This document shows, in pieces, positions 200 to 14,296 of a stretch of DNA of 31,811 bases. Position 1 is the stretch's first letter; every line of letters starts with the position of its first letter. The stretch is taken from the UHGV virus genome UHGV-0116366. One strand, given 5' to 3'. Made by a program: the position numbers and the translations under genes. The notes below the pieces were generated by a model, which was not told the DNA's origin, did not search any database, and saw nothing but the letters and a program-made list of their open reading frames with translations. The stretch is from a virus.

Positions 200-1036
200 A
201 TGATTCGTCTTTTAATGCTGATTAGTGCAGTATTTGGGATCGGCTATGGTTACGCGATAACGCATGATGTTTGGCCTTTTGAAGGTATGGATGCGAACCA
301 GCGAGGAGTTTTTGGCGACTCTTGGGGCGCTTTTACCTCAATCTTTTCTGCTATGGGGTTTTGTGGGGTTTTATGGACGATAAAGCTGCAGATGGATGCA
401 ACAAAAAAAATAGAGGATGATTTTAGGAAAAGGGAAGAAGCTGAAAAAATTAGGGATTTTGAGAACTCCTTCTTTAATATGTTGAGTATATTGCAAACAT
501 TAATTAAAGATATGAGGGTTGAAGGCTCTTCCGGGAAGACTTTGGCAGAAGGGCGTCATGTTTTTCTTTATTTTTTCAGACGATTCAAAAAAGAAGTTAG
601 ACAAAAAAATGGAATGTTATTAGATTATGACTCGAGTGATGAATCTGAAATTAAAAAAGCATCATCGAGAATGTCTAATGAATATAGGTTTTATTTCAGG
701 AATAGAGCTCAAAATTTATCTCATTACTTCAGATATATCTATAATATGTTTAAAATAATCCACGAATCTGATTTGTCTAACGTTAACAAGAAAAAATACG
801 CAAACATTTTACGCGCTCAACTTTCTAATTATGAGTTGCTAATGCTGTTTTATAATGCCAATTTCGTTCATGGTCAGAAATTTAAAGTATATATGAGCTT
901 GTATGCGATTCTGGATAATCTGCCAGCAGAGAAGCTTATAAATAAAAAACATGTTGCATTCTATGATAAAGAAGCGTGGGGTGATAATCTTGATGCATTA
1001 CAGTATCACCCCAAGTTTTTTGATTATGCAGATTAA
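200..1036 (+). CDS. AT-rich moron encoding a membrane-anchored protein; possible abortive-infection/exclusion (Abi-like) protein
   Basis: 278-aa ORF with hydrophobic N-terminal segments (LLMLISAVFGIGYGYAI, FTSIFSAMGFCGVLWTI) and a Lys/Asn/Tyr/Phe-rich soluble domain. Codon composition is much more AT-rich than flanking phage genes. It lies between the attachment-site gene (icd) and int, where e14 carries lit. Functional call is from memory of Abi-like families and is not verified. Confidence 0.55.
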   Translation: MIRLLMLISAVFGIGYGYAITHDVWPFEGMDANQRGVFGDSWGAFTSIFSAMGFCGVLWTIKLQMDATKKIEDDFRKREEAEKIRDFENSFFNMLSILQTLIKDMRVEGSSGKTLAEGRHVFLYFFRRFKKEVRQKNGMLLDYDSSDESEIKKASSRMSNEYRFYFRNRAQNLSHYFRYIYNMFKIIHESDLSNVNKKKYANILRAQLSNYELLMLFYNANFVHGQKFKVYMSLYAILDNLPAEKLINKKHVAFYDKEAWGDNLDALQYHPKFFDYAD

Positions 1037-2163
1037 TTATTAATAATTTTTATCCAATCCTTGCCTCTATCATCATGGTATCTGGCTGTTTGCTGGGGAG
1101 ATTTATGCCCCAGCAGTTTTTGAGTATTTACTCCCTGGTCTTCATACAGACGTTCTGCCAGAGAGCGCTGCTCGTGAAAAGTTGCAGGCGTGCCCTCACC
1201 CCATTCAATCTCTGCTTTATCCCGTGCTTTGCTGAAATTCATCGTAATGGTGTTGGACTTCACCTGCGCACCGCGCTCCGCCTGCGACGTTGCCCGAAAG
1301 AAGTGGATCATATACGGGCTGACTGCATAATCCCGACATCTGGCAACAACATCCCGAAGACACCAACCTATAGCATTAAGTCGCAGAGAAAGAGGGATTG
1401 CGATTTTGCTCCCGGTTTTTTCCTGAATGACATGGAGATGATCATCCCAAATATCGCTAAATTTCATTCGCGAGATATCACCTAACCGCTGGCCAGTCAC
1501 CAGTGCTAACAGCATAGCATTCCCCATATACTGATGTTTCTTATCCGCGATATCGAAAATCTTCTGCCACTCGTCGAGGCTAAGTCGTTGTCTGGTAATC
1601 TTGCGCCTGGGCTGTTTAGTAGCAAGGGCAGGGTTGTGACCAGACGGCACTTCACCGTAGTGTTGGGCCTCTTTGAATACATCGATCAGAACTGAGCGAA
1701 CAACTTGCGCCATTCTTGGTTGGCCTGCAGATAGATACTCTTCAAGAATTTGAGCAATATCCCTGACATCAACAGAAGATATGAGCTTCATTCCCGCACG
1801 TTCCTTAAGTAGTGCAACTGGCTTGGCTTTTTGTTTATATGTATTCTCCTTGATATCACCTGAAGCGAATCTTTCCTCTTGAATTTTCCAGTATCGCTCA
1901 AGCCAGGTAATAGTCGTAATTGCTTTACCCTTGCTGGCAGCGATTCGATCGCTAATAGCCAGTACCTGTCTTGAACGCTGCTCAGCAAGTCTTGCGTTTG
2001 CCTCAGTAGCAATTGCTCTAGCCTCAGCTTCATCAGTACCCAGGCTGTGAAATTTCCCAGTCATAGGGTGCTTGTACCGCCAATACACTTTATTGACCTT
2101 ACGACTGTATAGTGGATAGAGGTTAGGTATTGATACATTATTTTTACGTGGTCTCGCAGCCAT
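1033..2163 (-). CDS. int: tyrosine integrase, lambda Int family
   Basis: C-terminus LLGHKSPQQTARYHDDRGKDWIKI closely resembles the lambda Int catalytic-tyrosine region (LLGHKSDTMASQYRDDRGREWDKI). The ORF is open to 2229, but the ATG at 2163 (MAARPRK...) gives a lambda-like ~20-nt overlap with xis. Confidence 0.9.
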   Translation of the reverse strand: MAARPRKNNVSIPNLYPLYSRKVNKVYWRYKHPMTGKFHSLGTDEAEARAIATEANARLAEQRSRQVLAISDRIAASKGKAITTITWLERYWKIQEERFASGDIKENTYKQKAKPVALLKERAGMKLISSVDVRDIAQILEEYLSAGQPRMAQVVRSVLIDVFKEAQHYGEVPSGHNPALATKQPRRKITRQRLSLDEWQKIFDIADKKHQYMGNAMLLALVTGQRLGDISRMKFSDIWDDHLHVIQEKTGSKIAIPLSLRLNAIGWCLRDVVARCRDYAVSPYMIHFFRATSQAERGAQVKSNTITMNFSKARDKAEIEWGEGTPATFHEQRSLAERLYEDQGVNTQKLLGHKSPQQTARYHDDRGKDWIKIINN

Positions 2164-2389
2164 CGCTGAGGATCCTTTGTAATTTTGGTGAATCAGATTT
2201 CTTGATAACCGGCGCAGCAAGTTCTCCAACCAATTCCGCGTCCTCCCTAACTCTCCAGAGCCTACCTTGCTTCATTGCTGGCGGAGAAAAGAGATTTTGC
2301 TTAGCGTAACGGCGCAATGTAGAGACGCTAGGTGGATTACTTCTGTATTTATCGGTTGCCCATTCTTCAAGAGTTAACATCTGAATCAT
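2144..2389 (-). CDS. xis: excisionase (Xis-like DNA-binding protein)
   Basis: 81-aa basic protein immediately upstream of and overlapping int; MIQMLTLEEWA...RYAKQNLFSPPAMKQGRLW resembles lambda Xis (MYLTLQEWNARQ...). GGAG RBS upstream. Confidence 0.7.
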   Translation of the reverse strand: MIQMLTLEEWATDKYRSNPPSVSTLRRYAKQNLFSPPAMKQGRLWRVREDAELVGELAAPVIKKSDSPKLQRILSDGCETT

Positions 2390-2997: not shown

Positions 2998-3051
2998 GAA
3001 AAAACACCAAACTATTCTTAGCTTGATGTTAAGAGGAAGATTAGAGGTGGG

Positions 3052-3678
3052 TTAAAGCTCGTACTGAACGCCTTTGACAACGCCGATGATCAGGCAATTA
3101 CCGTTAATTGAAATGTTTGGATAGCGTGGATTTAAGGGAACTAAGAACTTTTGAGGCCCATCGATGACAAGTTTTTTTACAGTAGCCTCGTTTGTCCCAT
3201 CAAGCCTGGCTACGACTATCTTTCCATGAAGTGGCTCTGCATCTGGATCTACTATGACTGTTGCCCCTTCAGGGATTGTCGGGAGGCCATTAGGGTTTGT
3301 CATCGAATCACCTTTAACCTCCAATGCAAAGGAGCTATCCCCTATGCGGAGTGATGTCTCTATCCACTTATCTACTTCGCTGAAAACTTCTGCTGCTTTA
3401 CATTCTGTAAACTGTCCAGCCTGAACCCAGGATATCACCGGAATCCTTCGCATCTTGGTTATCAGATTGCCTTCAAATTCAGTGCCATAAAGTATGTAAT
3501 CAATTGATGTGTTGAAATACTTTGCAAGTTTCGCAAGTGACTCGCCTCCTGGCACATTAACGTCTTTTTCCCAATACCCAACCGCCACATCACTAACACC
3601 GCAGAACTTACCCAGTTCTTTCTGCGAGGTTTTGGTTATGCGCCTGAGAGCTTTGATGCGCTGACCGACAGTTTCCAT
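3052..3678 (-). CDS. cI: CI-type phage repressor (N-terminal HTH_XRE, C-terminal S24 LexA-like peptidase)
   Basis: N-terminus QRIKALRRITKTSQKELGKFCGVSDVAVGYWEKDVNVP (HTH). C-terminal domain has GDSM (Ser nucleophile) and VKK (Lys) as in LexA/CI autopeptidases. Divergent from cro. Confidence 0.9.
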   Translation of the reverse strand: METVGQRIKALRRITKTSQKELGKFCGVSDVAVGYWEKDVNVPGGESLAKLAKYFNTSIDYILYGTEFEGNLITKMRRIPVISWVQAGQFTECKAAEVFSEVDKWIETSLRIGDSSFALEVKGDSMTNPNGLPTIPEGATVIVDPDAEPLHGKIVVARLDGTNEATVKKLVIDGPQKFLVPLNPRYPNISINGNCLIIGVVKGVQYEL

Positions 3679-3704
3679 TTGAACACCATAAATAAATTAA
3701 AAGG

Positions 3705-3767
3705 CTAAGCAATCTTAGTTTTTATTGACCAAAGTTAGATTGGTTATTAATATCTAATCAAACTTAG
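3705..3767. promoter_or_regulatory. OR-like operator cluster: CTAAGCAATCTTAG (3705-3718), CCAAAGTTAGATTGG (3729-3743), CTAATCAAACTTAG (3754-3767)
   Basis: Repeated 14-bp CTAAG-N4-CTTAG inverted-repeat sites in the cI-cro intergenic region, overlapping the PR -35/-10 and start site. Confidence 0.5.
3725..3753 (+). promoter_or_regulatory. PR-like rightward promoter for cro (TTGACC - 17 nt - TAATAT)
   Basis: Near-consensus sigma70 hexamers with 17-nt spacing, 28 nt upstream of the cro ATG. AGGAGG RBS at 3771-3776. Confidence 0.55.
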
Positions 3768-3780
3768 CTAAGGAGGCGTT

Positions 3781-4008
3781 ATGACAACCGATGATATTGA
3801 AAACTACTTCGGCAGTACTGAGAAGGTTGCCGAATTTTTTGGAATCACAAGCGAGGCTGTTTACCAGTGGCGTAATAGAACTGGTCGCCTTATCCCAAAA
3901 GGGCGTGCAGCTGAAGCAGCATATCGAACCGGGGGGAAATTGGTTTTTCATCCCGACCTTTACGAAAAGCGTAGCGATGCTTCAGTAAAACTCAAACCAC
4001 AGGAATAA
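3781..4008 (+). CDS. cro: Cro-like repressor
   Basis: 75-aa protein divergent from cI with a strong RBS; FGSTEKVAEFFGITSEAVYQWRN resembles Cro/YdaS-type HTH. Confidence 0.75.
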   Translation: MTTDDIENYFGSTEKVAEFFGITSEAVYQWRNRTGRLIPKGRAAEAAYRTGGKLVFHPDLYEKRSDASVKLKPQE

Positions 4009-4018
4009 GGGGGGAGCT

Positions 4019-4570
4019 GTGGGTAACGAACCTATTTGGAAAGTCGAACGTCAGCCAGCCTGGCTGGTGGCGGCGATAAAAAAAACGATCACCGATCTTC
4101 CTGGTGGTTATGCCGAGGCGGCGGAATGGTTGGGCGTGACAGAGAACGCATTGTTCAACCGCCTTCGTGTTGACGGCGACCAAATCTTCCCGCTGGGCTG
4201 GGCAATGGTTTTACAACGTGCTGGTGGTTCAACTCATATTGCTGATGCCGTTGCGCGCCATTCTCAGGGCGTATTTGTACCGCTGGCAGACGTTGATGAT
4301 CTGGATAACGCCGATATAAACCAGCGCCTGATGGAGTCCATTGAATGGATAGGTCGTCATTCTAATTTTGTACGTAAAGCCACGGCTGATGGGGTAATTG
4401 ACGCAGATGAGCGTGCTCAGATTGAGGAAAACAGCTATCAGGTTATCGCGAAGTTCCAGGAGCACGTAACGCTTCTTTATCGAGTTTTTTGTGTCGCTGA
4501 AAAGAGTGACGCCCGCGAGTGTGCAGCTCCGGGCGCCTTGGCGAACAACTCTTCGAGTATGGAGAAATAA
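4019..4570 (+). CDS. CII-like regulatory protein (phage 186 CP76 type)
   Basis: 183-aa ORF directly after cro, GTG start. Length and position match the e14 ymfL / CP76 family; call is by recollection of the family, not alignment. Confidence 0.55.
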   Translation: MGNEPIWKVERQPAWLVAAIKKTITDLPGGYAEAAEWLGVTENALFNRLRVDGDQIFPLGWAMVLQRAGGSTHIADAVARHSQGVFVPLADVDDLDNADINQRLMESIEWIGRHSNFVRKATADGVIDADERAQIEENSYQVIAKFQEHVTLLYRVFCVAEKSDARECAAPGALANNSSSMEK

Positions 4571-4742
4571 TCCGCATGAGCAGTTTAACGGCTTTTAACC
4601 GTCTACCGCAACTAAGGATGATCCCGGTTTCGGGTACTCCGTTGTTTCGGTATGAACGCAGATTATCAAACCGCTGGGTTCCGTGTAACCACAGTAGGGC
4701 GGTTTCAATTGTGGGGGTCTACAACCGGAGGGCAAAACGCCT

Positions 4743-4922
4743 GTGCGCGAACTTAACCGAAGGTTCAAAGACCACCGCGGAGTGCCAGTCCGTGTTATCC
4801 GCTGGGAGCCAGAAACACAGCGCGTTATCTATCTGCGTGATGGCTACCCACACGAATGCTTCAGCCCACTTGAGCATTTCAGGCAAAAGTTCAGGGAGAT
4901 AACGGACGATCATGAGCACTAA
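4743..4922 (+). CDS. small hypothetical protein (frame uncertain)
   Basis: Frame 0 reads VRELNRRFKDHRGVPVRVIRWEPETQRVIYLRDGYPHECFSPLEHFRQKFREITDDHEH, which is protein-like. GTG start preceded by GGAGG 11 nt upstream. The overlapping 127-aa ORF at 4519-4902 has a Ser/Ala/Arg/Cys-rich composition and looks wrong-frame. Confidence 0.35.
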   Translation: MRELNRRFKDHRGVPVRVIRWEPETQRVIYLRDGYPHECFSPLEHFRQKFREITDDHEH

Positions 4923-5769
4923 ATTAACCGGCTACGTATGGGATGGTTGCGCGGCGTCGGGCATGAAGTTGTCTAGTGTCGCGATCATGGCTCGCCTTGC
5001 TGATTTCAGCAGCGATGAGGGGGTGTGCTGGCCGTCTATTGAAACTATTGCTCGCCAGCTTGGCGCAGGGCCGAGCACTATCAGAACGGCAATCGCTAAG
5101 CTTGAAAAAGATGGCTGGCTCACGCGTACACAGCGCCGTAATGGTAACCGTAATGCGTCGAACGTTTACCGCCTGAATGTGGCGAAACTTCAGGCTGCCG
5201 CATTTTCTCAACTGTCAGATTCTGACACGTCAAAATCTGACGCATCAAAATTTGACACCTCAAAAACTGACCCGTCGAAATCTGGCAAAATCGGCGGTTT
5301 TGACCCGTCAGAATCTGGCGGGGATCCGTCAGTAAAATCAACACAAGATCCACAAGTAACTTCAAAACCCTCTTGTCCGGTTGCGGCGCAACCAGACCCT
5401 GAAGTTGTGATTACCGACCAGGCGATTTTGGTTCTGACCCATTTGAACCAGATCAGCGGATCCCGGTATCAGAAATCCAAAACATCCCTGGAGAATATCC
5501 GCGCCCGACTGCGTGAGGGATACAGCGTTGCAGACCTGCAACTGGTTATCGACCTGAAGCATGAGCACTGGCACGAGAACGACGAGCAATACCAGTACAT
5601 GCGGCCGGAAACGCTTTTTGGTCCGAAGAAATTCGAGAGCTATCTGCAAAGCGCTACCCGCTGGGATCAGAAGGGACGGCCTAAACGCGCTGATTGGGGT
5701 GCGAAAAAGCGCGATGTGATGGCTTTTGGTCCGGTTGATACAACGATTCCTGCGGGGTTCAGAGGATGA
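4912..5769 (+). CDS. phage replication initiator (N-terminal HTH, C-terminal conserved phage replication domain)
   Basis: N-terminal winged-HTH-like region (SIETIARQLGAGPSTIRTAIAKLEKDGWLTR). C-terminal block (LENIRARLREGYSVADLQLVIDLKHEHWHENDEQYQYMRPETLFGPKKFESYLQ) is typical of lambdoid replication-organiser proteins. Iterons lie inside the gene. Confidence 0.8.
   Translation: MSTKLTGYVWDGCAASGMKLSSVAIMARLADFSSDEGVCWPSIETIARQLGAGPSTIRTAIAKLEKDGWLTRTQRRNGNRNASNVYRLNVAKLQAAAFSQLSDSDTSKSDASKFDTSKTDPSKSGKIGGFDPSESGGDPSVKSTQDPQVTSKPSCPVAAQPDPEVVITDQAILVLTHLNQISGSRYQKSKTSLENIRARLREGYSVADLQLVIDLKHEHWHENDEQYQYMRPETLFGPKKFESYLQSATRWDQKGRPKRADWGAKKRDVMAFGPVDTTIPAGFRG
5215..5335. repeat. origin-like iteron array inside the replication gene (about six copies of GTCARAWTCTGAC-like 12-13-mers)
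   Basis: tcagattctgac / gtcaaaatctgac / atcaaaatttgac / ctcaaaaactgac / gtcgaaatctggc / gtcagaatctggc are readable in tandem; they encode the low-complexity SDSDTSKSDASKFDTSKTDPSKSG linker. Confidence 0.6.
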
Positions 5770-6647
5770 CGTTAAACAAATATTGCCAGGCGCTGGCGGC
5801 ATTACGTAGCCAACCAGCCCACGAATTGAAAGAAGTTGGCGATCAGTGGCGGACGCCGGATCTGCTTTTTTGGGGGATCAACGCGCTATTTGGTCCATTA
5901 GTTCTGGACTTGTTTGCAGACGACGACAACGCGAAGTGCCCGGCATGGTACACCGCCGAAGATAACGCGCTGACACAGAACTGGTCTGAACGTCTGGATG
6001 AACTGGGCGGAGCGGCGTTTGCCAACCCTCCATATAGCCGCTCGCAGTATCACGACAGGCAGGCGATCACGGGTATGACACACATCATGAATCACACCAT
6101 GGACATGCGTGAAAGAGGTGGTCGCTATATTTACCTGGTGAAGTCTGCCACAAGTGAAACATGGTGGCCGGAAGATGCCGATCACATCATGTTTATTCGT
6201 GGTCGTATTGGGTTCGATCTGCCTGTGTGGTTTGTACCTGCTGACGAAAAACAGAAACCCACCAGCGCGTTTTTTGCCGGTGCCATAGCTGTATTCGATA
6301 AGTCATGGCGTGGTGAGCGGTTCAGCTATATCAACCGCACTGAGTTGGAGGCAAAAGGTCGGGCATTTATGGCGCTGGCTCAATTCGCTGTTGGTAAAGA
6401 GCAAACAATTGCAACGCTGGCAGCCCAGGAACCAGCAGCACCACCAAAAACTGAGTCACGAATCTGGCCTCTCGAAGTTGGTCTGGTGTTTAACCAAGTG
6501 GAAGGCGCTGATGTATTGAGCGAGGCCCAGCAGAACAAACTGAAAGCCAACATCAATCAACTCTGGCTGGAGCGGACGGCCACCAGCGAAATTATCGCAA
6601 TTGCGCGTGGCCTTGTTGGCAGCATGCAGGGGGTAACCCATGCGTGA
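5766..6647 (+). CDS. DNA N6-adenine methyltransferase (phage Dam-like) with C-terminal extension
   Basis: FANPPYS motif (NPPY catalytic motif of amino-MTases) in the N-terminal ~170 aa; C-terminal ~120 aa of unknown function. Confidence 0.75.
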   Translation: MTLNKYCQALAALRSQPAHELKEVGDQWRTPDLLFWGINALFGPLVLDLFADDDNAKCPAWYTAEDNALTQNWSERLDELGGAAFANPPYSRSQYHDRQAITGMTHIMNHTMDMRERGGRYIYLVKSATSETWWPEDADHIMFIRGRIGFDLPVWFVPADEKQKPTSAFFAGAIAVFDKSWRGERFSYINRTELEAKGRAFMALAQFAVGKEQTIATLAAQEPAAPPKTESRIWPLEVGLVFNQVEGADVLSEAQQNKLKANINQLWLERTATSEIIAIARGLVGSMQGVTHA

Positions 6648-8637
6648 GATTATCGTTGATAACTTTGCTGGTGGCGGTGGCGCATCAACGGGTATTGAAC
6701 TGGCAATCGGGCGCAGCGTGGATATTGCGATCAACCACGACGAAAACGCCATTGCGATGCACAAGACGAACCACCCGGACACACTGCATTATTGTGAATC
6801 CGTATTTGACGTGGATCCGGTAGCCGCCACCGGAGGTAATCCTGTCGGACTGGCATGGTTTAGCCCGGACTGCCGACACTTCTCGAAGGCAAAAGGCGCA
6901 AAGCCTGTGAAAAAAGAGATACGCGGTCTGGCCTGGATTGTTCTGCGTTGGGCACTGGCGAAGCGACCGCGCGTGATGATGCTGGAGAACGTGGAAGAGT
7001 TCAAAACGTGGGGACCGTTAATTGACATCCCGCCTAAACCTGATTTGCCGGAAGCCCTTTTGGCGGATTTTATTGGCCCGGTTTACCCTGGAAATAGTCG
7101 CCCAGACCCTGCCCGCACTGGAGAAACATTCAATGCATTTGTCGGCATGCTGTCCACTGGCATTCCTGCTGATCACCCGGCACTGGCTGAGGTTTGTGAG
7201 TTTCTGTCTATTGTAAGAGGTAGCGAGCAGGCGAAAAAGCTGGTGGATGGGCTCGGATATGATGTTGATTATCGTGAACTGCGCGCGTGTGATTACGGCG
7301 CGCCGACGATCCGCAAACGCTTCTTCATGGTTATGCGCTGCGATGGCTGCCCAATCCAGTGGCCTACTGTTACCCATGGGGATCCTAAGTCTCTGGAGGT
7401 GCAGAGCGGCAGGCTGATGCCATGGCGTACCGCTGCGGAATGTATCGACTGGAATGTTCCGGCCCTGTCCATCTTCGACCGCAAAAAACCGCTGGCGGAG
7501 AACACTTTGAAGCGGATCGCGCGCGGCATACAGCGCTTTGTTATCGAAAGTGCGTCGCCGTTTATCGTGAAGTGCAACCACACCACGACCAAAGGAAAAT
7601 ACGACTGTTTCCGTGGGCAGGAGTTGAGTGAGCCGCTGCAGACCATTACGAAAACCCATGGCTACGCGTTAGCCGTGCCACACCTGACAAAATTCCGCAC
7701 TGGCGCAACCGGGCAGCCCGTTACCGAGCCTGTCCCGACGGTAACCGCTGGCACATCAAAACGTCCAGGTGGGAATGGGCATGCACTCGGGATTGTTGAG
7801 GCTGCACTGACACCATTCCTGGCGGGTAATGGTGGTAGTGAATACCAGGCTAAACCACGCCCGCTGGATAAACCTGCTCATACCATTCTGAAGCAATCCC
7901 GCGCCTGTCTTGTTGCGCCAGTGATAGCCCGCCAGTTTGGGGCCAGCGTCGGCCATCGGGCAGACGAACCGAGCGCAACCATCACCGCTGGCGGTGGCGG
8001 TAAATCTCAACTGGTAACGCCTACGCTGATCCAGATGGGTTATGGCGAACGTCCAGGACAAGAACCGCGTGTGCTGCGACTGGATAACCCGCTGGGGACC
8101 GTTACTGCAGGTGGAAATAAATTCGCGACGGTGAGCGCGTTCCTGGCAAAACACTACGGCGGTAACTATACGGGGCCGGGTGTCAGTATGGATGAACCCG
8201 CGCACTCAGTGACCACTGTCGACCATCATGCAGTAGTTGCCTCTCATCTGGTGAAACTGCGAGGAACATGCCGCGACGGGCAGTGCCTTGATGTGCCCAT
8301 GCCAACAATCACCGCTGGTGGCCAACACGTGGGTGAGGTACGCACATTTCTCGAGACGTATTGCGGGGAAAGTGACGATGAATGGCTGGTAACGATCGAT
8401 GGGGTTAAATACCAGATCGTTGATATCGGAATGCGCATGTTGCAGCCGCATGAACTCTACAAAGCGCAGGGCTTCCCCGATGGATACGTTATTGATCAGG
8501 ACTACCGTGGAAATCGCTATGCAAAAGATAAGCAGGTAGCCCGCTGCGGTAATGCGGTACCACCACCATTCGCCAGGGCGCTGGTGGAGGCAAATCTTCC
8601 GGAACTGTGTGCAGTGCAACAGCAGGAGGTGGCATGA
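6640..8637 (+). CDS. DNA (cytosine-5) methyltransferase with unusually long variable region, possibly multispecific
   Basis: Motif I FAGGGG, PC-like motif FSPDCRHFS, motif VI MMLENV, motif VIII YGAPTIRKRFFMV, C-terminal CGNAVPPP. About 360 aa separate motif VIII from motif IX/X and contain four copies of a (T/V)(I/V)TAG(G/T) motif. Confidence 0.85.
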   Translation: MREIIVDNFAGGGGASTGIELAIGRSVDIAINHDENAIAMHKTNHPDTLHYCESVFDVDPVAATGGNPVGLAWFSPDCRHFSKAKGAKPVKKEIRGLAWIVLRWALAKRPRVMMLENVEEFKTWGPLIDIPPKPDLPEALLADFIGPVYPGNSRPDPARTGETFNAFVGMLSTGIPADHPALAEVCEFLSIVRGSEQAKKLVDGLGYDVDYRELRACDYGAPTIRKRFFMVMRCDGCPIQWPTVTHGDPKSLEVQSGRLMPWRTAAECIDWNVPALSIFDRKKPLAENTLKRIARGIQRFVIESASPFIVKCNHTTTKGKYDCFRGQELSEPLQTITKTHGYALAVPHLTKFRTGATGQPVTEPVPTVTAGTSKRPGGNGHALGIVEAALTPFLAGNGGSEYQAKPRPLDKPAHTILKQSRACLVAPVIARQFGASVGHRADEPSATITAGGGGKSQLVTPTLIQMGYGERPGQEPRVLRLDNPLGTVTAGGNKFATVSAFLAKHYGGNYTGPGVSMDEPAHSVTTVDHHAVVASHLVKLRGTCRDGQCLDVPMPTITAGGQHVGEVRTFLETYCGESDDEWLVTIDGVKYQIVDIGMRMLQPHELYKAQGFPDGYVIDQDYRGNRYAKDKQVARCGNAVPPPFARALVEANLPELCAVQQQEVA

Positions 8638-9020
8638 AACTTGTGCTCCCGTTCCCTCCAAGCGTGAACACTTACTGGCGCGCCCCTAATAAGGGGCCGC
8701 TGGCCGGTCGTCACCTCATTAGCGCTGATGGTCGTAAATACCAGAGCGCTGCCTGCGTGGCGATCATTGAGCAATTACGACGTCTCCCGAAGCCATCGAC
8801 TGAACTGGCAGCGGTAGAAATCACTCTGTACCCGCCGGATGCGCGCCGCCGGGATATCGATAATTACAACAAAGCCCTGTTTGACGCGCTGACGCATGCG
8901 GGTGTCTTGGAAGACGACAGCCAGATTAAGCGCATGCTGGTGGAATGGGGACCCGTAGTGCCGAAAGGTCGGGTAGAGATAACGATCAGCAGATATGAAC
9001 CGGCGGGTGCAGCCGCCTGA
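8634..9020 (+). CDS. rusA: Holliday junction resolvase RusA
   Basis: MKLVLPFPPSVNTYWR...DIDNYNKALFDALTHAGVLEDDSQI is the RusA signature. ATGA start/stop overlap with the MTase; AGGAGG RBS. Confidence 0.85.
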   Translation: MKLVLPFPPSVNTYWRAPNKGPLAGRHLISADGRKYQSAACVAIIEQLRRLPKPSTELAAVEITLYPPDARRRDIDNYNKALFDALTHAGVLEDDSQIKRMLVEWGPVVPKGRVEITISRYEPAGAAA

Positions 9021-9033
9021 TATGGAGAAAAGT

Positions 9034-9717
9034 ATGAGCCAGTTAGCAACAACAGCATTAACCATGTCCAGCAGCGATATTGCTGAGCTGGTGGAATCAC
9101 GACATGACCATGTTAAACGGTCCATTGAACGCCTGGCAGAGCGCGGTGTTATTGAACTCCCCCCAATGGGGGAAGTTAAAAATCACCTCAATCAGTCGGT
9201 ATCGGTTTATCTGATAGGGAAGCGGGACAGTTATATCGTTGTCGCGCAGCTGTCGCCGGAGTTTACCGCGCGTCTGGTTGATCGCTGGCAGGAGCTTGAG
9301 CAGGCACAGCAGCAGACGATTCCTCAATCATTCTCTGAAGCCCTACGTCTTGCAGCTGACCTTGCAGAACAAAAACAGCAGTTGACTAACGAACTTGCTG
9401 CCGCGGCGCCGAAGGTAGAGTTTGTTGATCGGTACTGTACAGCCAGTGGGTCAATGTCATTCCGCCAGGTGGCAAAACTGCTTAAGGCCAAAGAGCCAGA
9501 TCTGCGGTTATTCCTCCTTGAGAACGACATCATGTATCGCCTTGGCGGAACGATGACCCCACGGCATCAGCATATTGATGCAGGCCGTTTTGAAGTGAAA
9601 ACCGGCACATCCGTAACCTCAAATCATGCATTCAGCCAGGCACGTTTCACGGCGAAAGGCGTGCGCTGGATTGGTGGACTGTGGGCAGAACACATTGCCA
9701 GGGGGCAGGTCGCGTGA
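9034..9717 (+). CDS. phage antirepressor (Rha-like N-terminus, KilA-C/Ant-like C-terminus)
   Basis: LTMSSSDIAELVESRHDHVKRSIERL resembles the Rha-family N-terminal motif; start at 9034 chosen because of GGAGA RBS (the ORF is open from 8995). Confidence 0.65.
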   Translation: MSQLATTALTMSSSDIAELVESRHDHVKRSIERLAERGVIELPPMGEVKNHLNQSVSVYLIGKRDSYIVVAQLSPEFTARLVDRWQELEQAQQQTIPQSFSEALRLAADLAEQKQQLTNELAAAAPKVEFVDRYCTASGSMSFRQVAKLLKAKEPDLRLFLLENDIMYRLGGTMTPRHQHIDAGRFEVKTGTSVTSNHAFSQARFTAKGVRWIGGLWAEHIARGQVA

Positions 9718-10709
9718 GAGCTCTGCTTACCCCCGAGATCGCCCATCGTATGGGGATTGTGCTGTTCCGTCCCGGTGCGGAACTGATGCACCTCTTCATG
9801 CGTGGTCGCGTTCTGCTCGAGCCTGAACCAGAAGAAATGGCGTCTTTCAGTACCGGGGCTGTTCCGGCAGCCATTCAGCCGCTGGCTGATGATCCGGTAA
9901 TGCGTCAGGTCTTCGAGAATGAGAGGGTTATTCAGCGTGCCGGTGGGCTTCCTTCCCTTGAGCAATGGTTGAGTACCCGGTTTGATTGCCAGTGGCCACA
10001 TTCATCGTGGCACGATAAGAACTTCACAACAATGCGACACCCACCAGGAAGTATTCGCCTGTGCTGGCATTGCGATCACACTTTGTCGGGGCAGCATACC
10101 GAACAGCTTGCAGGTATAGCCGCAGGAAACCTGGTATCCTGGATTCTGGAAGTCATTCGGCGTGATTCTGGTTTTCCTGAGTCGCATATCCTGACGCTTC
10201 CGGAACTGTGCTGGTGGATGGTCAGAAACGACCTGGCTGATGTTATTCCGGAAAGCGTTGCGCACAAAGGGCTGCGCCTTCCGGATGAGAAGATCCGTTC
10301 TGTCATGAGGGAAAGCGACATAGTGCCTTCCTCGTCAGCAACCAGACTCGTGCAGGAGAAGGCGAAAAAGATCCTCACGCTTTCTGTTGATCCGGAGTCG
10401 CCAGAGTCTTTTATGCTCAGGCCAAAACGTCGCCGCTGGATAAATGAGACGTACACCCGCTGGGTTAAAACACAACTCTGTGAGTGTTGCCGACGGCCAG
10501 CAGATGATCCGCACCATATCGTAGGGCACGGTATGGGGGGAACAGCAACAAAAGCCCATGACCTCTTCGTGATCCCTCTGTGCAGAGAGTGCCACGACGA
10601 GTTACACGCCGATGTATCGGCATTCGAGCAGAAGCATGGTACGCAGCTTGAGCTGTTACTGCGTTTTATGGATCGGGCGCTGGCGATCGGCGTAATTGCG
10701 ACAGCTTAA
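9714..10709 (+). CDS. DUF968-like phage protein with C-terminal Cys/His zinc-binding (HNH-like) motif
   Basis: C-terminus CECCRRPADDPHHIVGHGMGG...KAHDLFVIPLCRECHDELH. Length and position (between antirepressor and Q) resemble Qin YdfU-type proteins. GTGA start/stop overlap with the upstream gene. Confidence 0.5.
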   Translation: MRALLTPEIAHRMGIVLFRPGAELMHLFMRGRVLLEPEPEEMASFSTGAVPAAIQPLADDPVMRQVFENERVIQRAGGLPSLEQWLSTRFDCQWPHSSWHDKNFTTMRHPPGSIRLCWHCDHTLSGQHTEQLAGIAAGNLVSWILEVIRRDSGFPESHILTLPELCWWMVRNDLADVIPESVAHKGLRLPDEKIRSVMRESDIVPSSSATRLVQEKAKKILTLSVDPESPESFMLRPKRRRWINETYTRWVKTQLCECCRRPADDPHHIVGHGMGGTATKAHDLFVIPLCRECHDELHADVSAFEQKHGTQLELLLRFMDRALAIGVIATA

Positions 10710-10726
10710 GTGTATGGAGAAAAGTA

Positions 10727-11089
10727 ATGCGTGATATTCAGATGGTTTTAGAACGCTGGGGGGGCTGGGCATCAGCTGATAATTCTGGCGTTGACTATTC
10801 CCATATTGCCGCTGGCTTCAAGGGACTTTTACCGCAGACAAGCAAAACCAGGTTGTCATGTACAGATGATGATGCGCTTATCATTGAAAGTTGCCTAGCA
10901 CGACTGAAAAGCCGAAAGCCATATGAGCATTCGCTTCTTGTCGCTCACTACCTTTACGGTATCTCGAAGAGGAAGATAGCAAAAGCGCGAAAGAAGGATG
11001 AGAAACTGATACGCATCGAGATACAGATGGCTGAGGGGTTTATAGATGGTTGTCTCTCAATGCTTGATGTTCGTCTAGATATGGACTAA
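10727..11089 (+). CDS. late-gene antiterminator Q (phage 82 / QuuD type)
   Basis: 120-aa protein beginning MRDIQMVLERWGGWA, characteristic of the small Q antiterminator family; GGAG RBS; located upstream of the lysis genes. Confidence 0.7.
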   Translation: MRDIQMVLERWGGWASADNSGVDYSHIAAGFKGLLPQTSKTRLSCTDDDALIIESCLARLKSRKPYEHSLLVAHYLYGISKRKIAKARKKDEKLIRIEIQMAEGFIDGCLSMLDVRLDMD

Positions 11090-11137
11090 TTATTTTTGAT
11101 AGAGGCATTGTTGTTAGTTAATGTCTCTATCTTTACT

Positions 11138-11383
11138 CTAACTAAGGCCAAGGTATGCCAATACTACAGCTGTAATAATGCCAATAACAATACTTTTTAT
11201 GTTTTCTAAAATGAAATTAATAATCCTGCGCCATATAGTAATTGGATTTTCTTTCTTATATATCAATTTGTTAGTCGGCGCTCCAGACTTGTTTTTTTCA
11301 GCGAAAATATCATCTGCACCATCAATGTCAGCAAGTGTGCTTGAAGATGTTTCATTTTCATTAAGGTGTATTTTTTTTTGCAT
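11138..11383 (-). CDS. hypothetical membrane-anchored small protein (AT-rich moron)
   Basis: 81-aa ORF antisense to the late operon with a C-terminal hydrophobic helix (IVIGIITAVVLAYLGL); strongly AT-rich codons. Confidence 0.45.
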   Translation of the reverse strand: MQKKIHLNENETSSSTLADIDGADDIFAEKNKSGAPTNKLIYKKENPITIWRRIINFILENIKSIVIGIITAVVLAYLGLS

Positions 11384-11412
11384 TCCTTATGACAAACATT
11401 GGTCTATTATAT

Positions 11413-11703
11413 TTATCCATACAATACACTCCTTATAAATATACTGCATTGTGAAGGTTTGAAATTTGGTATGTTTTTTGTTACTCGTCGCATGCTGTGT
11501 GCATTAAATTTATCAATGTTTTTATTGGCCTTTATGGTTTTGCAATTGTCAATTATATAAGGTGTCTCACTACTGTTGGTTGTATTTCCATTTAAAGTTA
11601 TGCTTTCAACATTATTTGCGATGAGAAATGGAGTATTCAGGTTTGAGGTATTATTATTAAAAACTACGTGACCACAGTTTTGTACGTAAAATATTGCATG
11701 CAT
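11413..11703 (-). CDS. hypothetical Asn/Thr-rich protein (AT-rich moron)
   Basis: 96-aa ORF upstream of and co-oriented with 11138-11383. A sigma70-like promoter on the minus strand (TTCTCA - 17 nt - TATACT) lies just upstream at about 11720-11750. Weak RBS. Confidence 0.35.
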   Translation of the reverse strand: MHAIFYVQNCGHVVFNNNTSNLNTPFLIANNVESITLNGNTTNSSETPYIIDNCKTIKANKNIDKFNAHSMRRVTKNIPNFKPSQCSIFIRSVLYG

Positions 11704-11812
11704 ATTAGTAACTCACGAAAGCATTAGTATACAAAGCAAGCATAACATTGAGAACACTCTACAGATTTTTAAGGAAAAAACAATCACGCGGTCCGCATTA
11801 CTTGGTGTATTG

Positions 11813-11829
11813 TGTTAAGAGTGGTCACT
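11813..11829. repeat. copy 1 of 17-bp motif TGTTAAGAGTGGTCACT
   Basis: 16/17 identical to 15348-15364 (TGTTAAGAGTGGTTACT); both lie just upstream of rightward late-gene blocks after antisense moron insertions. Confidence 0.5.
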
Positions 11830-11855
11830 TAGACGCGAACTTAAATATTTCAGAA

Positions 11856-11881
11856 CCTCGCCAATCGGCGGGGTTTTTTTC
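11856..11881 (+). terminator. rho-independent terminator (tR'-like) upstream of the lysis cassette
   Basis: cctcgccaatcggcgggg hairpin followed by tttttttc; lies downstream of Q and upstream of the holin, as expected for a Q-modifiable terminator. Confidence 0.5.
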
Positions 11882-11989
11882 ATTTCAGGCCCAGGTTAAA
11901 AACTGCAGATTAACCGTGATCACATGAGCTTGCGGCCTGAACCCTTTCCCCTCGTTTCTGAGAGGATTCACAGCAATTGAGGGGGACAG

Positions 11990-12376
11990 ATGTCCGAACC
12001 AATAACCGGCACAGGTTTAGCTGGTGGCGCTTTAACTGGGGCGAGTGTTTACGGACTGTTAACCGGAACAGATTATGGTGTGGTGTTTGGCGCGTTTGCC
12101 GGGGCTGTATTTTACATTGCAACGGCTGCGGACCTTAGCGCAGCACGTCGGCTGGCGTATTTTGTCGTGTCCTACATTGCCGGGATCATCTGCTCAGGGC
12201 TGGTTGGTTCAAAGCTGGCTGACTGGACTGGTTACAGTGATAAGCCTCTGGACGCTATCGGAGCCGTAATCGTTTCTGCTTTAGCTGTCAAAATCCTGAC
12301 GTTCCTGAATAACCAGGATGTCGGCTCGCTGGTGGCGCTGATAACGCGCCGGGGAGGTTCAGGTGGTACTAAATGA
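11990..12376 (+). CDS. holin-like membrane protein
   Basis: 128-aa Gly/Ala-rich protein with several hydrophobic helices, first gene of the lysis cassette. Confidence 0.55.
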   Translation: MSEPITGTGLAGGALTGASVYGLLTGTDYGVVFGAFAGAVFYIATAADLSAARRLAYFVVSYIAGIICSGLVGSKLADWTGYSDKPLDAIGAVIVSALAVKILTFLNNQDVGSLVALITRRGGSGGTK

Positions 12377-13421: not shown

Positions 13422-13691
13422 ATGGGACTTGAAATGATTATCGGCCTGGTTGTTGCTGTGCTGGCTGCAATTGCAGGTGCTTTTGGTCTGGGTAAATCAC
13501 GCGGTACTAACATCGCTGAGACAAAAGCGAACCAGCAACGCACTGAAGAACGTGCAGCAGCTACTGAGGCCGTTGCAGAACGCCGGGTAGAAACAACAAA
13601 AGGAGCCAGGGATGTACAGCAGACTGTTAATCATCTTCCTGATGACGATGTTGACCGCGAGTTGCGCGAAAACTTTACCCGCAAAACCTGA
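13422..13691 (+). CDS. i-spanin (Rz-like)
   Basis: N-terminal TM (MGLEMIIGLVVAVLAAIAGAF) followed by a charged, coiled-coil-like periplasmic domain, immediately after the endolysin. Confidence 0.7.
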   Translation: MGLEMIIGLVVAVLAAIAGAFGLGKSRGTNIAETKANQQRTEERAAATEAVAERRVETTKGARDVQQTVNHLPDDDVDRELRENFTRKT

Positions 13692-13860
13692 AGTAACGGA
13701 CACGGCCTGTGACTGGGTAAGCATCATCTACCTCACTGAGCACGATATTGCTGTGCTGGATAAGCAGACTAAGAAAGACATTCTAGCGCATAACAAAGCA
13801 TGGCAGTCAAATTGTGAAAATGCGACTGTGAGCCTTAATCCTATAATGACCACGAAATAG
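13612..13860 (+). CDS. o-spanin (Rz1-like lipoprotein), overlapping Rz out of frame
   Basis: Signal peptide with lipobox LTASC; starts inside Rz in another frame and extends beyond it. Confidence 0.65.
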   Translation: MYSRLLIIFLMTMLTASCAKTLPAKPEVTDTACDWVSIIYLTEHDIAVLDKQTKKDILAHNKAWQSNCENATVSLNPIMTTK

Positions 13861-13899
13861 AAAATTGCTATGTTGTATCTTTCAAATGAGGGGAGCAGC

Positions 13900-14136
13900 A
13901 TGAGCCAAGTTACATTAACTATTAGTGAACTTTATGAAATTGCAGAGCAGTATTATGGAAACGAACTCTACCGTATAGAAGTTTGCAACATTGGAATTAG
14001 GTTCGTGTGTTTGGATCGTAGCAAGGGCAATGAAGAGTACTCTGCATTTTTCCAGACTCCTTTAAAAAATCTGTCTATAAACTCACTTAGAGGCTTTCTC
14101 GATGCGGAAACACAGGAGGAAAGCATAAGCAATTGA
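13900..14136 (+). CDS. hypothetical small protein (AT-rich moron)
   Basis: Start at 13900 preferred (GAGGGGAG RBS); product MSQVTLTISELYEIAEQYYGNELYRIEV... has no recognisable family. Confidence 0.45.
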   Translation: MSQVTLTISELYEIAEQYYGNELYRIEVCNIGIRFVCLDRSKGNEEYSAFFQTPLKNLSINSLRGFLDAETQEESISN

Positions 14137-14296
14137 AGGGCAGGTCACCTTTGATGGTGTCATTTGCTTGAATTGTTTTAAAAATGCACAAGCCCGTTAC
14201 AGTGTGAATGTGGTATGCATTACTGCGGGTATTTGCTGAGTGCCTGTGTTAATGTTGCTGCTGTAATAATGAGATGGTTTGTAAAAAAGGAAGGGA

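What the first reader, a model, noticed from the sequence alone, without database searches (positions are those of the whole stretch)
5766..8637. Tandem orphan DNA methyltransferases (N6-adenine and C5-cytosine) in the nin-like region
Two methyltransferases of different chemistry are adjacent and translationally coupled, with no cognate restriction endonuclease. This is the signature of phage anti-restriction self-methylation, and possibly epigenetic effects on the host in the lysogen.
Basis: partly seen in the sequence, partly recalled or inferred. Interest (0 to 1): 0.55.

Follow-up and report, generated by a model that had tools for sequence, protein, structure and literature searches.

The report
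Paired orphan phage DNA methyltransferases

Summary
ORF1 (5766-6647, 293 aa) is a phage Dam-family N6-adenine methyltransferase. ORF2 (6640-8637, 665 aa) is a C5-cytosine methyltransferase. They overlap by 8 nt, and no restriction endonuclease was found among the window ORFs scanned. They lie between the replication gene and rusA/Q in the early-right operon of a lambdoid prophage. Paired orphan phage methyltransferases are a known kind, and anti-restriction self-methylation is the most likely role. Expression in the lysogen looks unlikely.

- **A distinct clade.** ORF2 belongs to a very large clade with an invariant SPDC motif instead of the canonical PC.
- **A cassette array.** Where the target-recognition domain should be, ORF2 has seven tandem 'PxxT[IV]T' cassettes of about 30-45 aa. 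Relatives carry 1-12 cassettes of discrete types, with 145 different orders in 151 representatives. Near-identical alleles differ by whole cassettes. This resembles the multispecific methyltransferases of Bacillus phages, but homology to their recognition domains was not shown.
- **A partner domain.** ORF1 is a fusion. Its last ~60 aa ('X') precede the C5 gene in 76 of 78 species-dereplicated genome loci, all 76 Enterobacterales. X is free-standing there or fused to Dam, MT-A70, another methyltransferase-like protein or a ParB-HTH protein.

The functions of X and of the array are inferred, not shown.

The parts
5766..6647 (+). ORF1: phage N6-adenine methyltransferase (Dam family) fused to the C-terminal X domain, 293 aa
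   Evidence: PF05869 at 153 bits over aa 19-199 and TIGR01712 at 206.8 bits. The start overlaps the stop of the replication gene by ATGA.
5766..6380 (+). Dam catalytic core (aa 1-205), with NPPY at 6024-6035
   Evidence: It is 73% identical to SfV Dam and 70% to Stx2-phage Dam over this part only.
6381..6461 (+). Ala/Pro-rich linker between the Dam core and X (aa 206-232)
   Evidence: This stretch is poorly conserved and varies in length in alignment A3.
6462..6644 (+). X domain (aa 233-293; WPxEV...HINxxWLE motif; PHROG 16025; no Pfam family). Conserved partner of the C5 methyltransferase gene.
   Evidence: X ends at the methyltransferase start in 57 of 80 viral loci and 76 of 78 genome loci. 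It is free-standing (85-88 aa) or fused to Dam, MT-A70, a further methyltransferase-like protein or a ParB-HTH protein.
6640..6647 (+). 8-nt overlap ATGCGTGA (ORF2 start codon and ORF1 stop codon)
   Evidence: The same overlap is found in phiNP and Flotzy.
6640..8637 (+). ORF2: C5-cytosine methyltransferase of the 'SPDC' clade, 665 aa
   Evidence: PF00145 at 72.9 bits. The fold matches solved C5 methyltransferases. 8326 clusters at 50% identity match at E<=1e-3.
6664..6681 (+). Motif I, FAGGGG (AdoMet binding)
   Evidence: nearly invariant in A2.
6862..6873 (+). Motif IV variant, SPDC (catalytic Cys78 preceded by Asp instead of Pro)
   Evidence: S75, P76, D77 and C78 are invariant in 88 family members. 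It aligns with GPPC of 3g7u. Inteins are inserted at this point in relatives.
6985..6993 (+). Motif VI, ENV
   Evidence: E116, N117 and V118 are invariant.
7306..7320 (+). Motif VIII, TIRKR
   Evidence: T223, R225 and R227 are invariant. It aligns with TIRTR of 3g7u.
7615..8367 (+). Array of seven tandem 'PxxT[IV]T' cassettes (aa 326-355, 358-386, 406-435, 438-467, 480-507, 514-543, 547-576) in the position of the target-recognition domain
   Evidence: The motif occurs 7 times against 0.15 expected, and none of 20000 shuffles reached 7. The cassette HMM finds 1443-1618 cassettes in 271 family proteins and none in shuffled copies. Close alleles differ by whole-cassette indels. The cassette types in order are E-L-x-x-D-B-A.
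8467..8559 (+). Motifs IX (QGFP, 8467-8478) and X (GNAV, 8548-8559)
8634..8637 (+). ATGA overlap between the ORF2 stop and the rusA start
   Evidence: RusA is PF05866.
3725..3753 (+). PR-like promoter match between cI (3052-3678, minus strand) and cro (3781-4008), the probable source of transcription of the pair
   Evidence: Consensus match only.

Best explanation
The region encodes a two-enzyme DNA-modification module of a lambdoid prophage.

**The parts.**
- ORF1 is a Dam-family N6-adenine methyltransferase whose C-terminus carries a separate ~60-aa domain, X.
- ORF2 is an active C5-cytosine methyltransferase of a distinct phage clade (SPDC instead of PC).
- ORF2's recognition region, between motifs VIII and IX, is an array of seven short cassettes.

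**How it most likely works.**
- The genes are transcribed with the early-right operon after induction or infection. They are probably silent in the lysogen.
- Translation of ORF2 is probably coupled to the end of ORF1/X.
- The enzymes methylate replicating phage DNA, so that progeny are protected from restriction enzymes in the next host.
- The cassette array most likely sets or broadens the range of cytosine sites methylated. In principle it works like the tandem recognition domains of Bacillus-phage multispecific methyltransferases.
- X most likely acts with the C5 enzyme as a partner or adaptor. When fused, as here, it links an adenine methyltransferase to the C5 enzyme.

**Shown:** gene identities, catalytic motifs, fold, orphan status, cassette modularity and X co-occurrence.

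**Inferred:** timing of expression, anti-restriction role, multispecificity and any physical X-ORF2 contact.
For: **Identity and fold.**

**Catalytic residues.** They are invariant across 88 diverse relatives. Inteins sit at the catalytic Cys in several members, which is typical of essential active sites.

**Orphan status.**

**Position.** The pair lies in a tightly overlapped chain rep-ORF1-ORF2-rusA, between cro and Q, without extra promoter signal.

**The pair as a module.** The same two-gene arrangement with the 8-nt overlap occurs in phages phiNP and Flotzy.

**Cassette array.**
- It is non-random.
- It lies exactly where C5 methyltransferases carry their recognition domain.
- Near-identical alleles (82-99% identity) differ by in-register indels of 35-45 aa, that is, whole cassettes.
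- Cassettes fall into discrete conserved types that differ mainly in the 4-6 residues after T-x-T. There are 145 distinct orders in 151 representatives.

**X domain.**
- It is found at 57 of 80 viral loci and 76 of 78 species-level genome loci, always ending at the methyltransferase start. The Dam core is present at only 26 and 36 of these.
- It is free-standing or fused to at least four unrelated upstream proteins.
- At DNA level, X plus the 5' part of the methyltransferase gene form one conserved block in phages whose upstream Dam part did not match by megablast (H4-H6).

**Literature.** A 2025 review describes orphan phage methyltransferases expressed on induction, and credits tandem recognition domains only to Bacillus phages (PMC12707154).
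Against: - No methylation data exist for any member that I could find.
- The cassette HMM does not match the recognition domains of M.SPRI, M.Rho11sI or M.H2I, or M.HhaI, above noise. BLASTP shows only a short motif-level resemblance.
- AlphaFold gives pLDDT <50 for the array in the window protein and in a 4-cassette relative, so its fold is unknown.
- The commonest cassette types (A, B, C, D) are shared by a third to two thirds of the family. They may be structural rather than specificity modules.
- X diverges fast (mean 48% identity) and tracks Dam (rho 0.64) more than the 90%-conserved methyltransferase N-domain (rho 0.31).
- Dam+X occurs without the C5 gene in phage LLS and apparently in an E. 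coli chromosome whose match covers ORF1 only (H14).
- NCBIfam's dcm model scores below its cut-off (53.3 against 100.65).
Confidence: 0.55

Rival explanations
1. These are ordinary monospecific orphan methyltransferases with housekeeping roles for the phage. Examples would be GATC methylation for replication, packaging or avoiding mismatch repair, as with P1 Dmt, plus one Dcm-like cytosine specificity. On this view the cassettes are only a repetitive structural scaffold of a single recognition domain, and X is a dispensable tail.
For: - ORF1's relatives include the annotated Dam genes of phages SfV and T1 and Stx2-phage methyltransferases. From my own knowledge, T1, HP1 and VT2 Dam enzymes of PF05869 are GATC-specific.
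- The commonest cassette types are widely shared and hold fixed C-terminal positions: A is last or penultimate and C is always last.
- There is no homology to proven multispecific recognition domains.
- Dam+X exists without ORF2.
Against: - Whole cassettes come and go between alleles 82-99% identical, including the 'constant' type C, which this window's protein lacks. That is hard to reconcile with one integrated domain.
- 145 different orders in 151 representatives.
- The variable region is about 365 aa, compared with roughly 80-100 aa in monospecific enzymes (the latter figure is from my own knowledge).
Confidence: 0.27
2. The pair is expressed in the lysogen and acts on the host chromosome as an epigenetic regulator, that is, a moron function.
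For: Prophage methyltransferases that change host phenotype are known, for example a Staphylococcus prophage methyltransferase (PMC12435837, listed). Weak promoter-like matches exist in the region, for example at 5222-5251.
Against: - The genes are embedded, with overlapping stops and starts, in the cI-repressed early-right operon between rep and Q.
- Promoter-like matches are no more frequent than in shuffled sequence (10 against 9.2 +/- 3.2).
- GC content is like that of the neighbouring phage genes, not moron-like.
Confidence: 0.08
3. ORF2 is not a plain methyltransferase. The Asp-for-Pro change marks a different C5 chemistry, such as transfer of another group, or a non-catalytic DNA-binding role.
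For: The SPDC[KTR]H[FH]S signature is invariant and differs from the canonical PCQxFS. A natural C5-carboxymethyltransferase structure (8yf3) appears among the fold matches.
Against: All residues that define cytosine-C5 methyl transfer are present and invariant: Cys78, the Glu of ENV, R225/R227 and the AdoMet motif I. From my own knowledge, the canonical Pro contacts the base through its backbone, so a side-chain change need not alter the chemistry. 8yf3 is only rank 13, with rmsd 11.9.
Confidence: 0.05
4. The methyltransferases are the modification half of a restriction-modification or addiction system whose nuclease lies elsewhere in the prophage or host.
For: HNH-type proteins exist in the window: the DUF968/HNHc_6 protein at 9681-10709 and an HNH protein at 15429-15809.
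Against: Both are standard phage genes, one NinG-region and one terminase-associated. Neither matches any restriction-enzyme model in PADLOC. In the related loci examined in detail (phiNP, Flotzy, LLS and L016) the flanking genes are ordinary phage genes and differ between loci, with no annotated nuclease partner next to the methyltransferase.
Confidence: 0.05

Closest known systems
Phage orphan Dam-family N6-adenine methyltransferases (PF05869/TIGR01712; for example the Dam genes of phages T1, HP1, VT2/933W and SfV)
   Same: The ORF1 core scores far above both curated cut-offs, has NPPY, and is 70-73% identical to the SfV and Stx2-phage enzymes.
   Different: ORF1 has an extra C-terminal X domain that those relatives lack; their matches stop at aa 203-220. 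Its specificity is untested.
Multispecific C5 methyltransferases of Bacillus phages (M.SPRI, M.Phi3TI, M.Rho11sI, M.H2I, M.phiBssHII)
   Same: They are phage-encoded orphan C5 enzymes with several short tandem modules between motifs VIII and IX. Modules contain a P-x-x-T-[ILV]-T-like core. A short match exists (EPAHSVTTVDHH against EPAFTVNTIDRH). Modules appear individually dispensable, judged here from natural alleles.
   Different: There is no detectable homology of the cassettes to their recognition domains. The catalytic clade is different (SPDC). ORF2's family has up to 12 cassettes, against 3-5 recognition domains (the latter from my own knowledge). It is found in Gram-negative and actinobacterial phages. 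No specificity data exist.
Phage P1 Dmt (adenine and cytosine methyltransferase domains fused in one protein)
   Same: It combines an N6-adenine and a C5-cytosine methyltransferase in one phage module (my own knowledge; P1 dmt is mentioned in PMC12707154).
   Different: Here there are two overlapping ORFs, not one polypeptide. The link, if any, would be through the X domain.
Prophage CP-933R putative DNA modification methyltransferase (PDB 3g7u)
   Same: It is the best sequence and fold match among solved structures, and also prophage-encoded.
   Different: 3g7u is 376 aa with the canonical PPC motif and no cassette array. Identity is only 18%.
Two-polypeptide C5 methyltransferases (M.AquI, M.EcoHK31I)
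   Same: They are a precedent for a C5 methyltransferase that needs a second, small polypeptide encoded in an overlapping or adjacent frame (my own knowledge).
   Different: In those enzymes the small chain supplies conserved methyltransferase motifs. X carries none, and ORF2 has all the motifs itself.

Membership tests
Phage N6-adenine methyltransferase (PF05869 / TIGR01712) | Profile score above the curated cut-off | tested here: met
   153.3 bits against 28.1, and 206.8 bits against 97.05.
Phage N6-adenine methyltransferase (PF05869 / TIGR01712) | Catalytic (D/N)PPY motif | tested here: met
   NPPY at aa 87-90, conserved in A3.
Phage N6-adenine methyltransferase (PF05869 / TIGR01712) | m6A formation at a defined site (GATC in characterised members) | not testable with these tools
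   Needs methylome or restriction-protection assays.
C5-cytosine DNA methyltransferase (PF00145) | Profile score above the curated cut-off | tested here: met
   PF00145 at 72.9 bits against 22. NCBIfam TIGR00675 scores only 53.3 against 100.65.
C5-cytosine DNA methyltransferase (PF00145) | Conserved motifs I, IV (Pro-Cys), VI (ENV), VIII (RxR), IX and X in order | tested here: met
   All are present in order and invariant in the clade. Motif IV is a variant: the Cys is present but preceded by Asp, not Pro.
C5-cytosine DNA methyltransferase (PF00145) | Methyltransferase fold of the catalytic domain | tested here: met
   pLDDT >90 over aa 1-270 and 600-660. Foldseek hits are 3g7u at E 4e-11, then DNMT1, M.HaeIII and M.HhaI.
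C5-cytosine DNA methyltransferase (PF00145) | Formation of 5-methylcytosine in DNA | not testable with these tools
   Needs an experiment.
Multispecific C5 methyltransferases (Bacillus-phage type) | Several tandem recognition modules between motifs VIII and IX | tested here: met
   Seven cassettes at aa 326-576, between TIRKR (aa 223) and QGFP (aa 610).
Multispecific C5 methyltransferases (Bacillus-phage type) | Modules homologous to known target-recognition domains | tested here: not met
   The cassette HMM scores are negative or noise on M.SPRI, M.Rho11sI, M.H2I and M.HhaI. BLASTP E-values are 0.003-0.01 for one 23-24 aa stretch.
Multispecific C5 methyltransferases (Bacillus-phage type) | Modules individually dispensable, each carrying one specificity | tested here: inconclusive
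   Natural alleles lack single cassettes, but their activity and specificities are unknown.
Multispecific C5 methyltransferases (Bacillus-phage type) | Methylation of several unrelated target sequences | not testable with these tools
   Needs the methylome of an expressing strain.
Type II restriction-modification system | Cognate restriction endonuclease gene next to the methyltransferase | tested here: not met
   The neighbours are rep, RusA, Rha/KilAC, DUF968 and Q. No restriction-enzyme model matched in PADLOC, and the other window ORFs scanned gave none.
Fused bifunctional phage methyltransferase (P1 Dmt type) | Adenine and cytosine methyltransferase domains in one polypeptide | tested here: not met
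   There are two ORFs in different frames with an 8-nt overlap. No X or Dam fusion to the C5 enzyme was found among 270 family proteins.

The most novel reading that the evidence does not exclude
ORF2 represents a very large, uncharacterised clade of phage C5-cytosine methyltransferases (more than 2500 clusters at 50% identity with E<=1e-30). Their recognition region would be a combinatorial array of 1-12 exchangeable mini-cassettes, which amounts to naturally programmable multispecific methyltransferases outside Bacillus phages. In Enterobacterales the enzyme would work with a dedicated ~60-aa partner domain, X, that can recruit any of several adenine methyltransferases. The result would be a modular two-base DNA-camouflage platform against restriction.
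Probability: 0.3. Interest if true: 0.75.

Novelty: new variant of a known kind. Interest (0 to 1): 0.5.

Why it matters

Two things would matter if confirmed.

- **The cassette array.** If it sets specificity, it would show that the 'many recognition domains in one enzyme' strategy is widespread. Today that strategy is credited only to a few Bacillus phages. Relatives occur in phages of Enterobacterales, Vibrio, Pseudomonas, Burkholderia, Mycobacterium and Gordonia. It would also give a natural library of short modules for engineering cytosine-methylation specificity.
- **The X domain.** It is an unannotated, near-universal companion of this enzyme in Enterobacterales prophages. It may explain how adenine and cytosine methyltransferases are coupled.

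Both points can be tested directly with one cloning experiment and one methylome sequencing run. There is also a practical point: 5mC from such prophage enzymes is easily missed by PacBio methylomes, so this activity may be under-recorded in clinical Enterobacterales.

Tried and rejected
- **AlphaFold on the window protein and on a minimal 4-cassette relative, P0145.** The catalytic domain was confident, but the cassette array had pLDDT <50 in both. The fold of the cassettes is therefore unresolved.
- **Self-BLASTP of ORF2.** It found no internal repeats. The repeats were only recovered by motif anchoring and an HMM.
- **The cassette HMM against Bacillus multispecific methyltransferases and M.HhaI (the latter sequence from memory).** Nothing above noise.
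- **Mirror-tree test of X against the methyltransferase.** It did not support tight co-evolution (rho 0.31, against 0.64 for X and Dam), partly because the methyltransferase N-domain is about 90% conserved.
- **The search for homologous proteins with X alone.** It returned only 32 short fragments and no census of architectures.
- **Exact-match scan of reference genomes for the ORF1/ORF2 junction.** No hit. The source organism was not identified; the closest relatives are in Citrobacter, Salmonella, Enterobacter and Kluyvera.
- **Literature searches for characterised members or for multispecific cytosine methyltransferases outside Bacillus.** Nothing found. The key Trautner-group papers are not held.
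- **The idea that IncA/C plasmid dcm genes, which have bisulfite data, belong to this clade.** The 25 plasmid hits listed (a spread sample of 300 matching records) showed no sign of IncA/C plasmids: mostly phage-plasmids and Acinetobacter plasmids.
- **The 'PAPS reductase' label on neighbouring genes in phage records.** Rejected as an annotation artefact: Pfam finds only Dam.

Full report
**Observation.**
- ORF1 matches Pfam PF05869 (Dam) at 153 bits and NCBIfam TIGR01712 (phage N-6-adenine-methyltransferase) at 206.8 bits. Both are far above the curated cut-offs. It carries NPPY at residue 87.
- ORF2 matches PF00145 (C-5 cytosine methylase) at 72.9 bits against a cut-off of 22. It has the canonical motifs in the canonical order: FAGGGG, a Cys-containing motif IV, ENV, TIRKR, QGFP and GNAV.
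- The ORFs overlap by eight bases, ATGCGTGA, with a purine-rich stretch just upstream.

**Context.** The window is a lambdoid prophage.
- It has a lambda-type integrase (1033-2229, minus strand), a cI-like S24 repressor (3052-3678, minus strand), cro, a cII-like protein and a replication-initiator-like gene (4912-5769).
- The two methyltransferases follow, then RusA, a Rha/KilAC protein, a DUF968 protein, antiterminator Q, lysis genes, small and large terminase subunits and structural genes.
- rep/ORF1 and ORF2/rusA also overlap, each by ATGA, so the four genes form one tightly packed chain.
- No restriction endonuclease appears in the Pfam or PADLOC scans of the neighbouring and unassigned ORFs tested. 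The two HNH-type proteins are the usual NinG-region and terminase-associated ones.
- Promoter-like matches in 3000-12000 are no more frequent than in shuffled sequence. The best-placed one lies between cI and cro.

From the position alone I infer delayed-early expression from the repressor-controlled rightward promoter. That predicts silence in the lysogen.

**ORF2 is a member of a distinct, very large clade.**
- An exhaustive profile search found 8326 clusters (at 50% identity) at E<=1e-3 and 2533 at E<=1e-30, with lengths of 403-1113 aa among the best 150.
- In phage records the family occurs in Gordonia, Mycobacterium, Pseudomonas, Arthrobacter, Vibrio, Aeromonas, Klebsiella, Burkholderia and Bacillus phi105 records, among others.
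- Close relatives (76-93% identity) are annotated 'DNA cytosine methyltransferase' in Citrobacter, Salmonella, Enterobacter, Klebsiella and Kluyvera. Eighty species-level genomes of Enterobacterales, plus two Paenibacillus, carry one.
- The clade signature is WFSPDC[KTR]H[FH]SKA[KR]G. S75, P76, D77 and C78 are invariant in 88 diverse sequences. So are the ENV glutamate and the two arginines of motif VIII.
- The residue before the catalytic cysteine is therefore Asp, not the canonical Pro. It aligns with GPPC of the solved prophage enzyme 3g7u.
- Several long members carry Hint/LAGLIDADG inteins inserted exactly at SPD|C. That is the usual hallmark of an essential active site.
- The AlphaFold model is confident for the catalytic domain (pLDDT >90 over residues 1-270 and 600-660). 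It matches solved C5 methyltransferases: 3g7u at E 4e-11, then DNMT1, MET1, M.HaeIII and M.HhaI.

I conclude that ORF2 is an active C5-cytosine methyltransferase. The meaning of the Asp is unexplained.

**The cassette array.** Between motif VIII (aa 223) and motif IX (aa 610), where every C5 methyltransferase has its target-recognition domain, ORF2 has a conserved stretch followed by seven tandem units.
- *Layout.* The units are at aa 326-355, 358-386, 406-435, 438-467, 480-507, 514-543 and 547-576. Each has the form G-x-x-x-[DE]-x-P-x-x-T-[IV]-T, then a short loop, then a hydrophobic strand.
- *Statistics.* The core pattern occurs 7 times against 0.15 expected, and none of 20000 shuffles reached 7. 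An HMM built from the seven units finds 1443 units in 271 family proteins, or 1618 after one iteration, and none in shuffled copies. Representatives carry 1-12 units.
- *Whole-unit differences.* Alleles 82-99% identical to the window protein differ by clean, in-register gains or losses of single units of 35, 36, 39 and 45 aa.
- *Discrete types.* Clustering the 827 units from 151 representatives gives discrete conserved types. They differ mainly in the four to six residues after T-x-T: VDHH, KDRF, ENRF, KADT, AGGxH and so on.
- *Orders.* There are 145 different type orders among the 151 proteins. Type A is usually last or penultimate, type C is always last, and D/F-B pairs are common. The other types have no fixed place. 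The window protein reads E-L-x-x-D-B-A and lacks the common terminal C unit.
- *Resemblance to known enzymes.* This organisation recalls the tandem recognition domains of the Bacillus-phage multispecific methyltransferases. I recovered those from GenBank records for comparison.
- *Limits of that resemblance.* It is limited to one short stretch (EPAHSVTTVDHH against EPAFTVNTIDRH; E 0.003-0.01). The unit HMM does not score above noise on those enzymes or on M.HhaI.
- *Structure.* AlphaFold leaves the array at pLDDT <50 both in the window protein and in a four-unit relative modelled with a cleaner alignment.

That the cassettes are specificity modules is therefore an inference from position, modularity and type-specific loops. 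It has not been demonstrated.

**ORF1 is a fusion, and its tail is the real constant partner of ORF2.**
- PHROG and BLAST results first showed that the Dam homology ends near residue 205, and that the last ~60 residues match a separate 85-aa family, PHROG 16025, which has no Pfam family.
- In 80 IMG/VR loci holding ORF2 relatives, this 'X' domain lies immediately upstream of the methyltransferase start in 57. The Dam core is present in only 26.
- In 78 usable species-dereplicated genome loci, X is present at 76: every Enterobacterales locus, absent only from the two Paenibacillus loci. Dam is present at 36.
- X (consensus WPxEV...L...Q..L..HINR.WLE..P...I..A..L...M) takes several forms:
  - a free-standing 85-88 aa ORF whose stop overlaps the methyltransferase start;
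  - the C-terminus of PF05869 Dam, as here and in phiNP;
  - the C-terminus of longer Dam-containing proteins (Flotzy);
  - the C-terminus of MT-A70 methyltransferases;
  - the C-terminus of a third methyltransferase-like protein (PHROG 954);
  - the C-terminus of a ParB-HTH protein.
- At DNA level, X plus the 5' part of the methyltransferase gene form one conserved block in phages whose upstream Dam part did not match by megablast.
- There are exceptions and cautions:
  - Phage LLS has Dam+X with no C5 gene, and an E. coli chromosome appears to as well: its match covers ORF1 only (H14).
  - X was not detected next to relatives below about 52% identity.
  - X is never fused to the C5 enzyme itself in 270 family proteins.
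  - X evolves faster than either enzyme, and its divergence tracks Dam more than the methyltransferase.
- I could not run a complex prediction.

The partner or adaptor role of X is my best inference, at roughly even odds.

**Mechanism and rivals.** The best-supported reading (0.55) runs as follows.
- After induction or infection the early-right transcript yields ORF1 and, by coupled translation, ORF2.
- Both enzymes methylate replicating phage DNA at adenine N6 and cytosine C5.
- Packaged genomes then resist restriction enzymes in the next host.
- The cassette array broadens or sets the cytosine targets, and X links the C5 enzyme to whatever adenine methyltransferase the phage carries.

The rivals are:
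- Ordinary monospecific enzymes with phage housekeeping roles, with the cassettes as a structural repeat (0.27).
- Host epigenetic regulation in the lysogen (0.08).
- Altered chemistry, or a pseudo-enzyme (0.05).
- A split restriction-modification or addiction system (0.05).

A trade-off worth noting, from established knowledge, is that 5mC makes DNA a target for McrBC-type enzymes. This may relate to the rarity of the pair in complete E. coli genomes. Matches occur in 38 of 5426 genomes, and none covers 80% of the query. That link is speculation.

**Comparison with what is known.**
- The pair as such is a known kind. Orphan phage methyltransferases expressed on induction are reviewed in PMC12707154. 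That review attributes arrays of recognition domains only to Bacillus temperate phages, and cites P1 Dmt and M.EcoGII as E. coli examples.
- ORF1's core is an ordinary member of the phage Dam family. ORF2 passes the tests for a C5 methyltransferase.
- ORF2 fails the homology test for the Bacillus multispecific group, so I do not file it there. I only say it may work like them.
- It is not a P1 Dmt-type fusion. X carries none of the methyltransferase motifs that the small chains of M.AquI or M.EcoHK31I provide.
- My literature searches found no description of the SPDC clade, the cassette array or the X domain. The held library is incomplete, and REBASE could not be consulted.

**Verdict.** The added value is the atypical architecture: an SPDC clade, a combinatorial cassette array and a conserved X partner domain. 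I rate the finding a new variant of a known kind and give it moderate interest (0.5). The more novel reading, modular multispecific methylation with an adaptor, has a probability of about 0.3.

Noticed in passing
Proteins P0130, P0164, P0191, P0195, P0201, P0215 and P0267 (relatives of window 6640-8637): Inteins (Hint plus LAGLIDADG homing-endonuclease domains) are inserted in these ORF2-family members. Where the junction could be read (P0130, P0164), the insertion is exactly at the catalytic SPD|C.
   Followed up: partly
window 200-1036 (+): An AbiC/AbiP-like abortive-infection gene (PF16872; PADLOC AbiP at 9e-10) lies next to the lambda-type integrase at 1033-2229 (minus strand). It is probably a prophage-borne defence moron, in a low-GC stretch (GC 0.36).
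   Followed up: partly
L001 2674-4008 (Escherichia phage Flotzy) and similar records: Proteins annotated 'phosphoadenosine phosphosulfate reductase' in several phage records match only PF05869 Dam in Pfam. The label seems to come from the name of PHROG 33262 and looks like an annotation artefact.
   Followed up: partly
window 11000-12000 and 13500-15500: Two low-GC islands (GC 0.36-0.41 against about 0.53 elsewhere) hold ORFs with no Pfam or PADLOC match, at 14297-14611 (+) and 14679-15059 (minus strand). They are possible morons between the lysis and packaging genes.
   Followed up: no
window 7021-7098 (ORF2 aa 128-153): A 21-26 aa presence/absence insert (LIDIPPKPDLPEALLADFIGPVYPGNS) lies between motifs VI and VIII. 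It is present in some near-identical alleles and absent from others. The model confidence is low here.
   Followed up: no
L002 8049-9101 (phiNP); L006 from 7877 (LLS): Related phages carry a further annotated 'DNA adenine methylase' downstream of Q. This window has none at that place.
   Followed up: no
L160 and L161 (Paenibacillus brevis, P. hunanensis): ORF2 relatives at 51% identity occur in two Firmicutes genomes, without the X domain. This suggests cross-phylum spread of the clade.
   Followed up: no
window 9681-10709 (+): A 342-aa DUF968 protein with a weak HNHc_6 match overlaps the end of the Rha/KilAC gene (8995-9717). Its first ~170 residues have no family assignment.
   Followed up: no
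E. coli complete genomes: No complete E. coli genome holds the full pair: 38 of 5426 genomes have partial matches. Several, including Nissle 1917, match only part of ORF1 at about 89% identity. Close relatives of ORF2 are annotated in many Citrobacter, Enterobacter, Klebsiella and Salmonella records. A link to McrBC-type restriction of 5mC is a guess.
   Followed up: no
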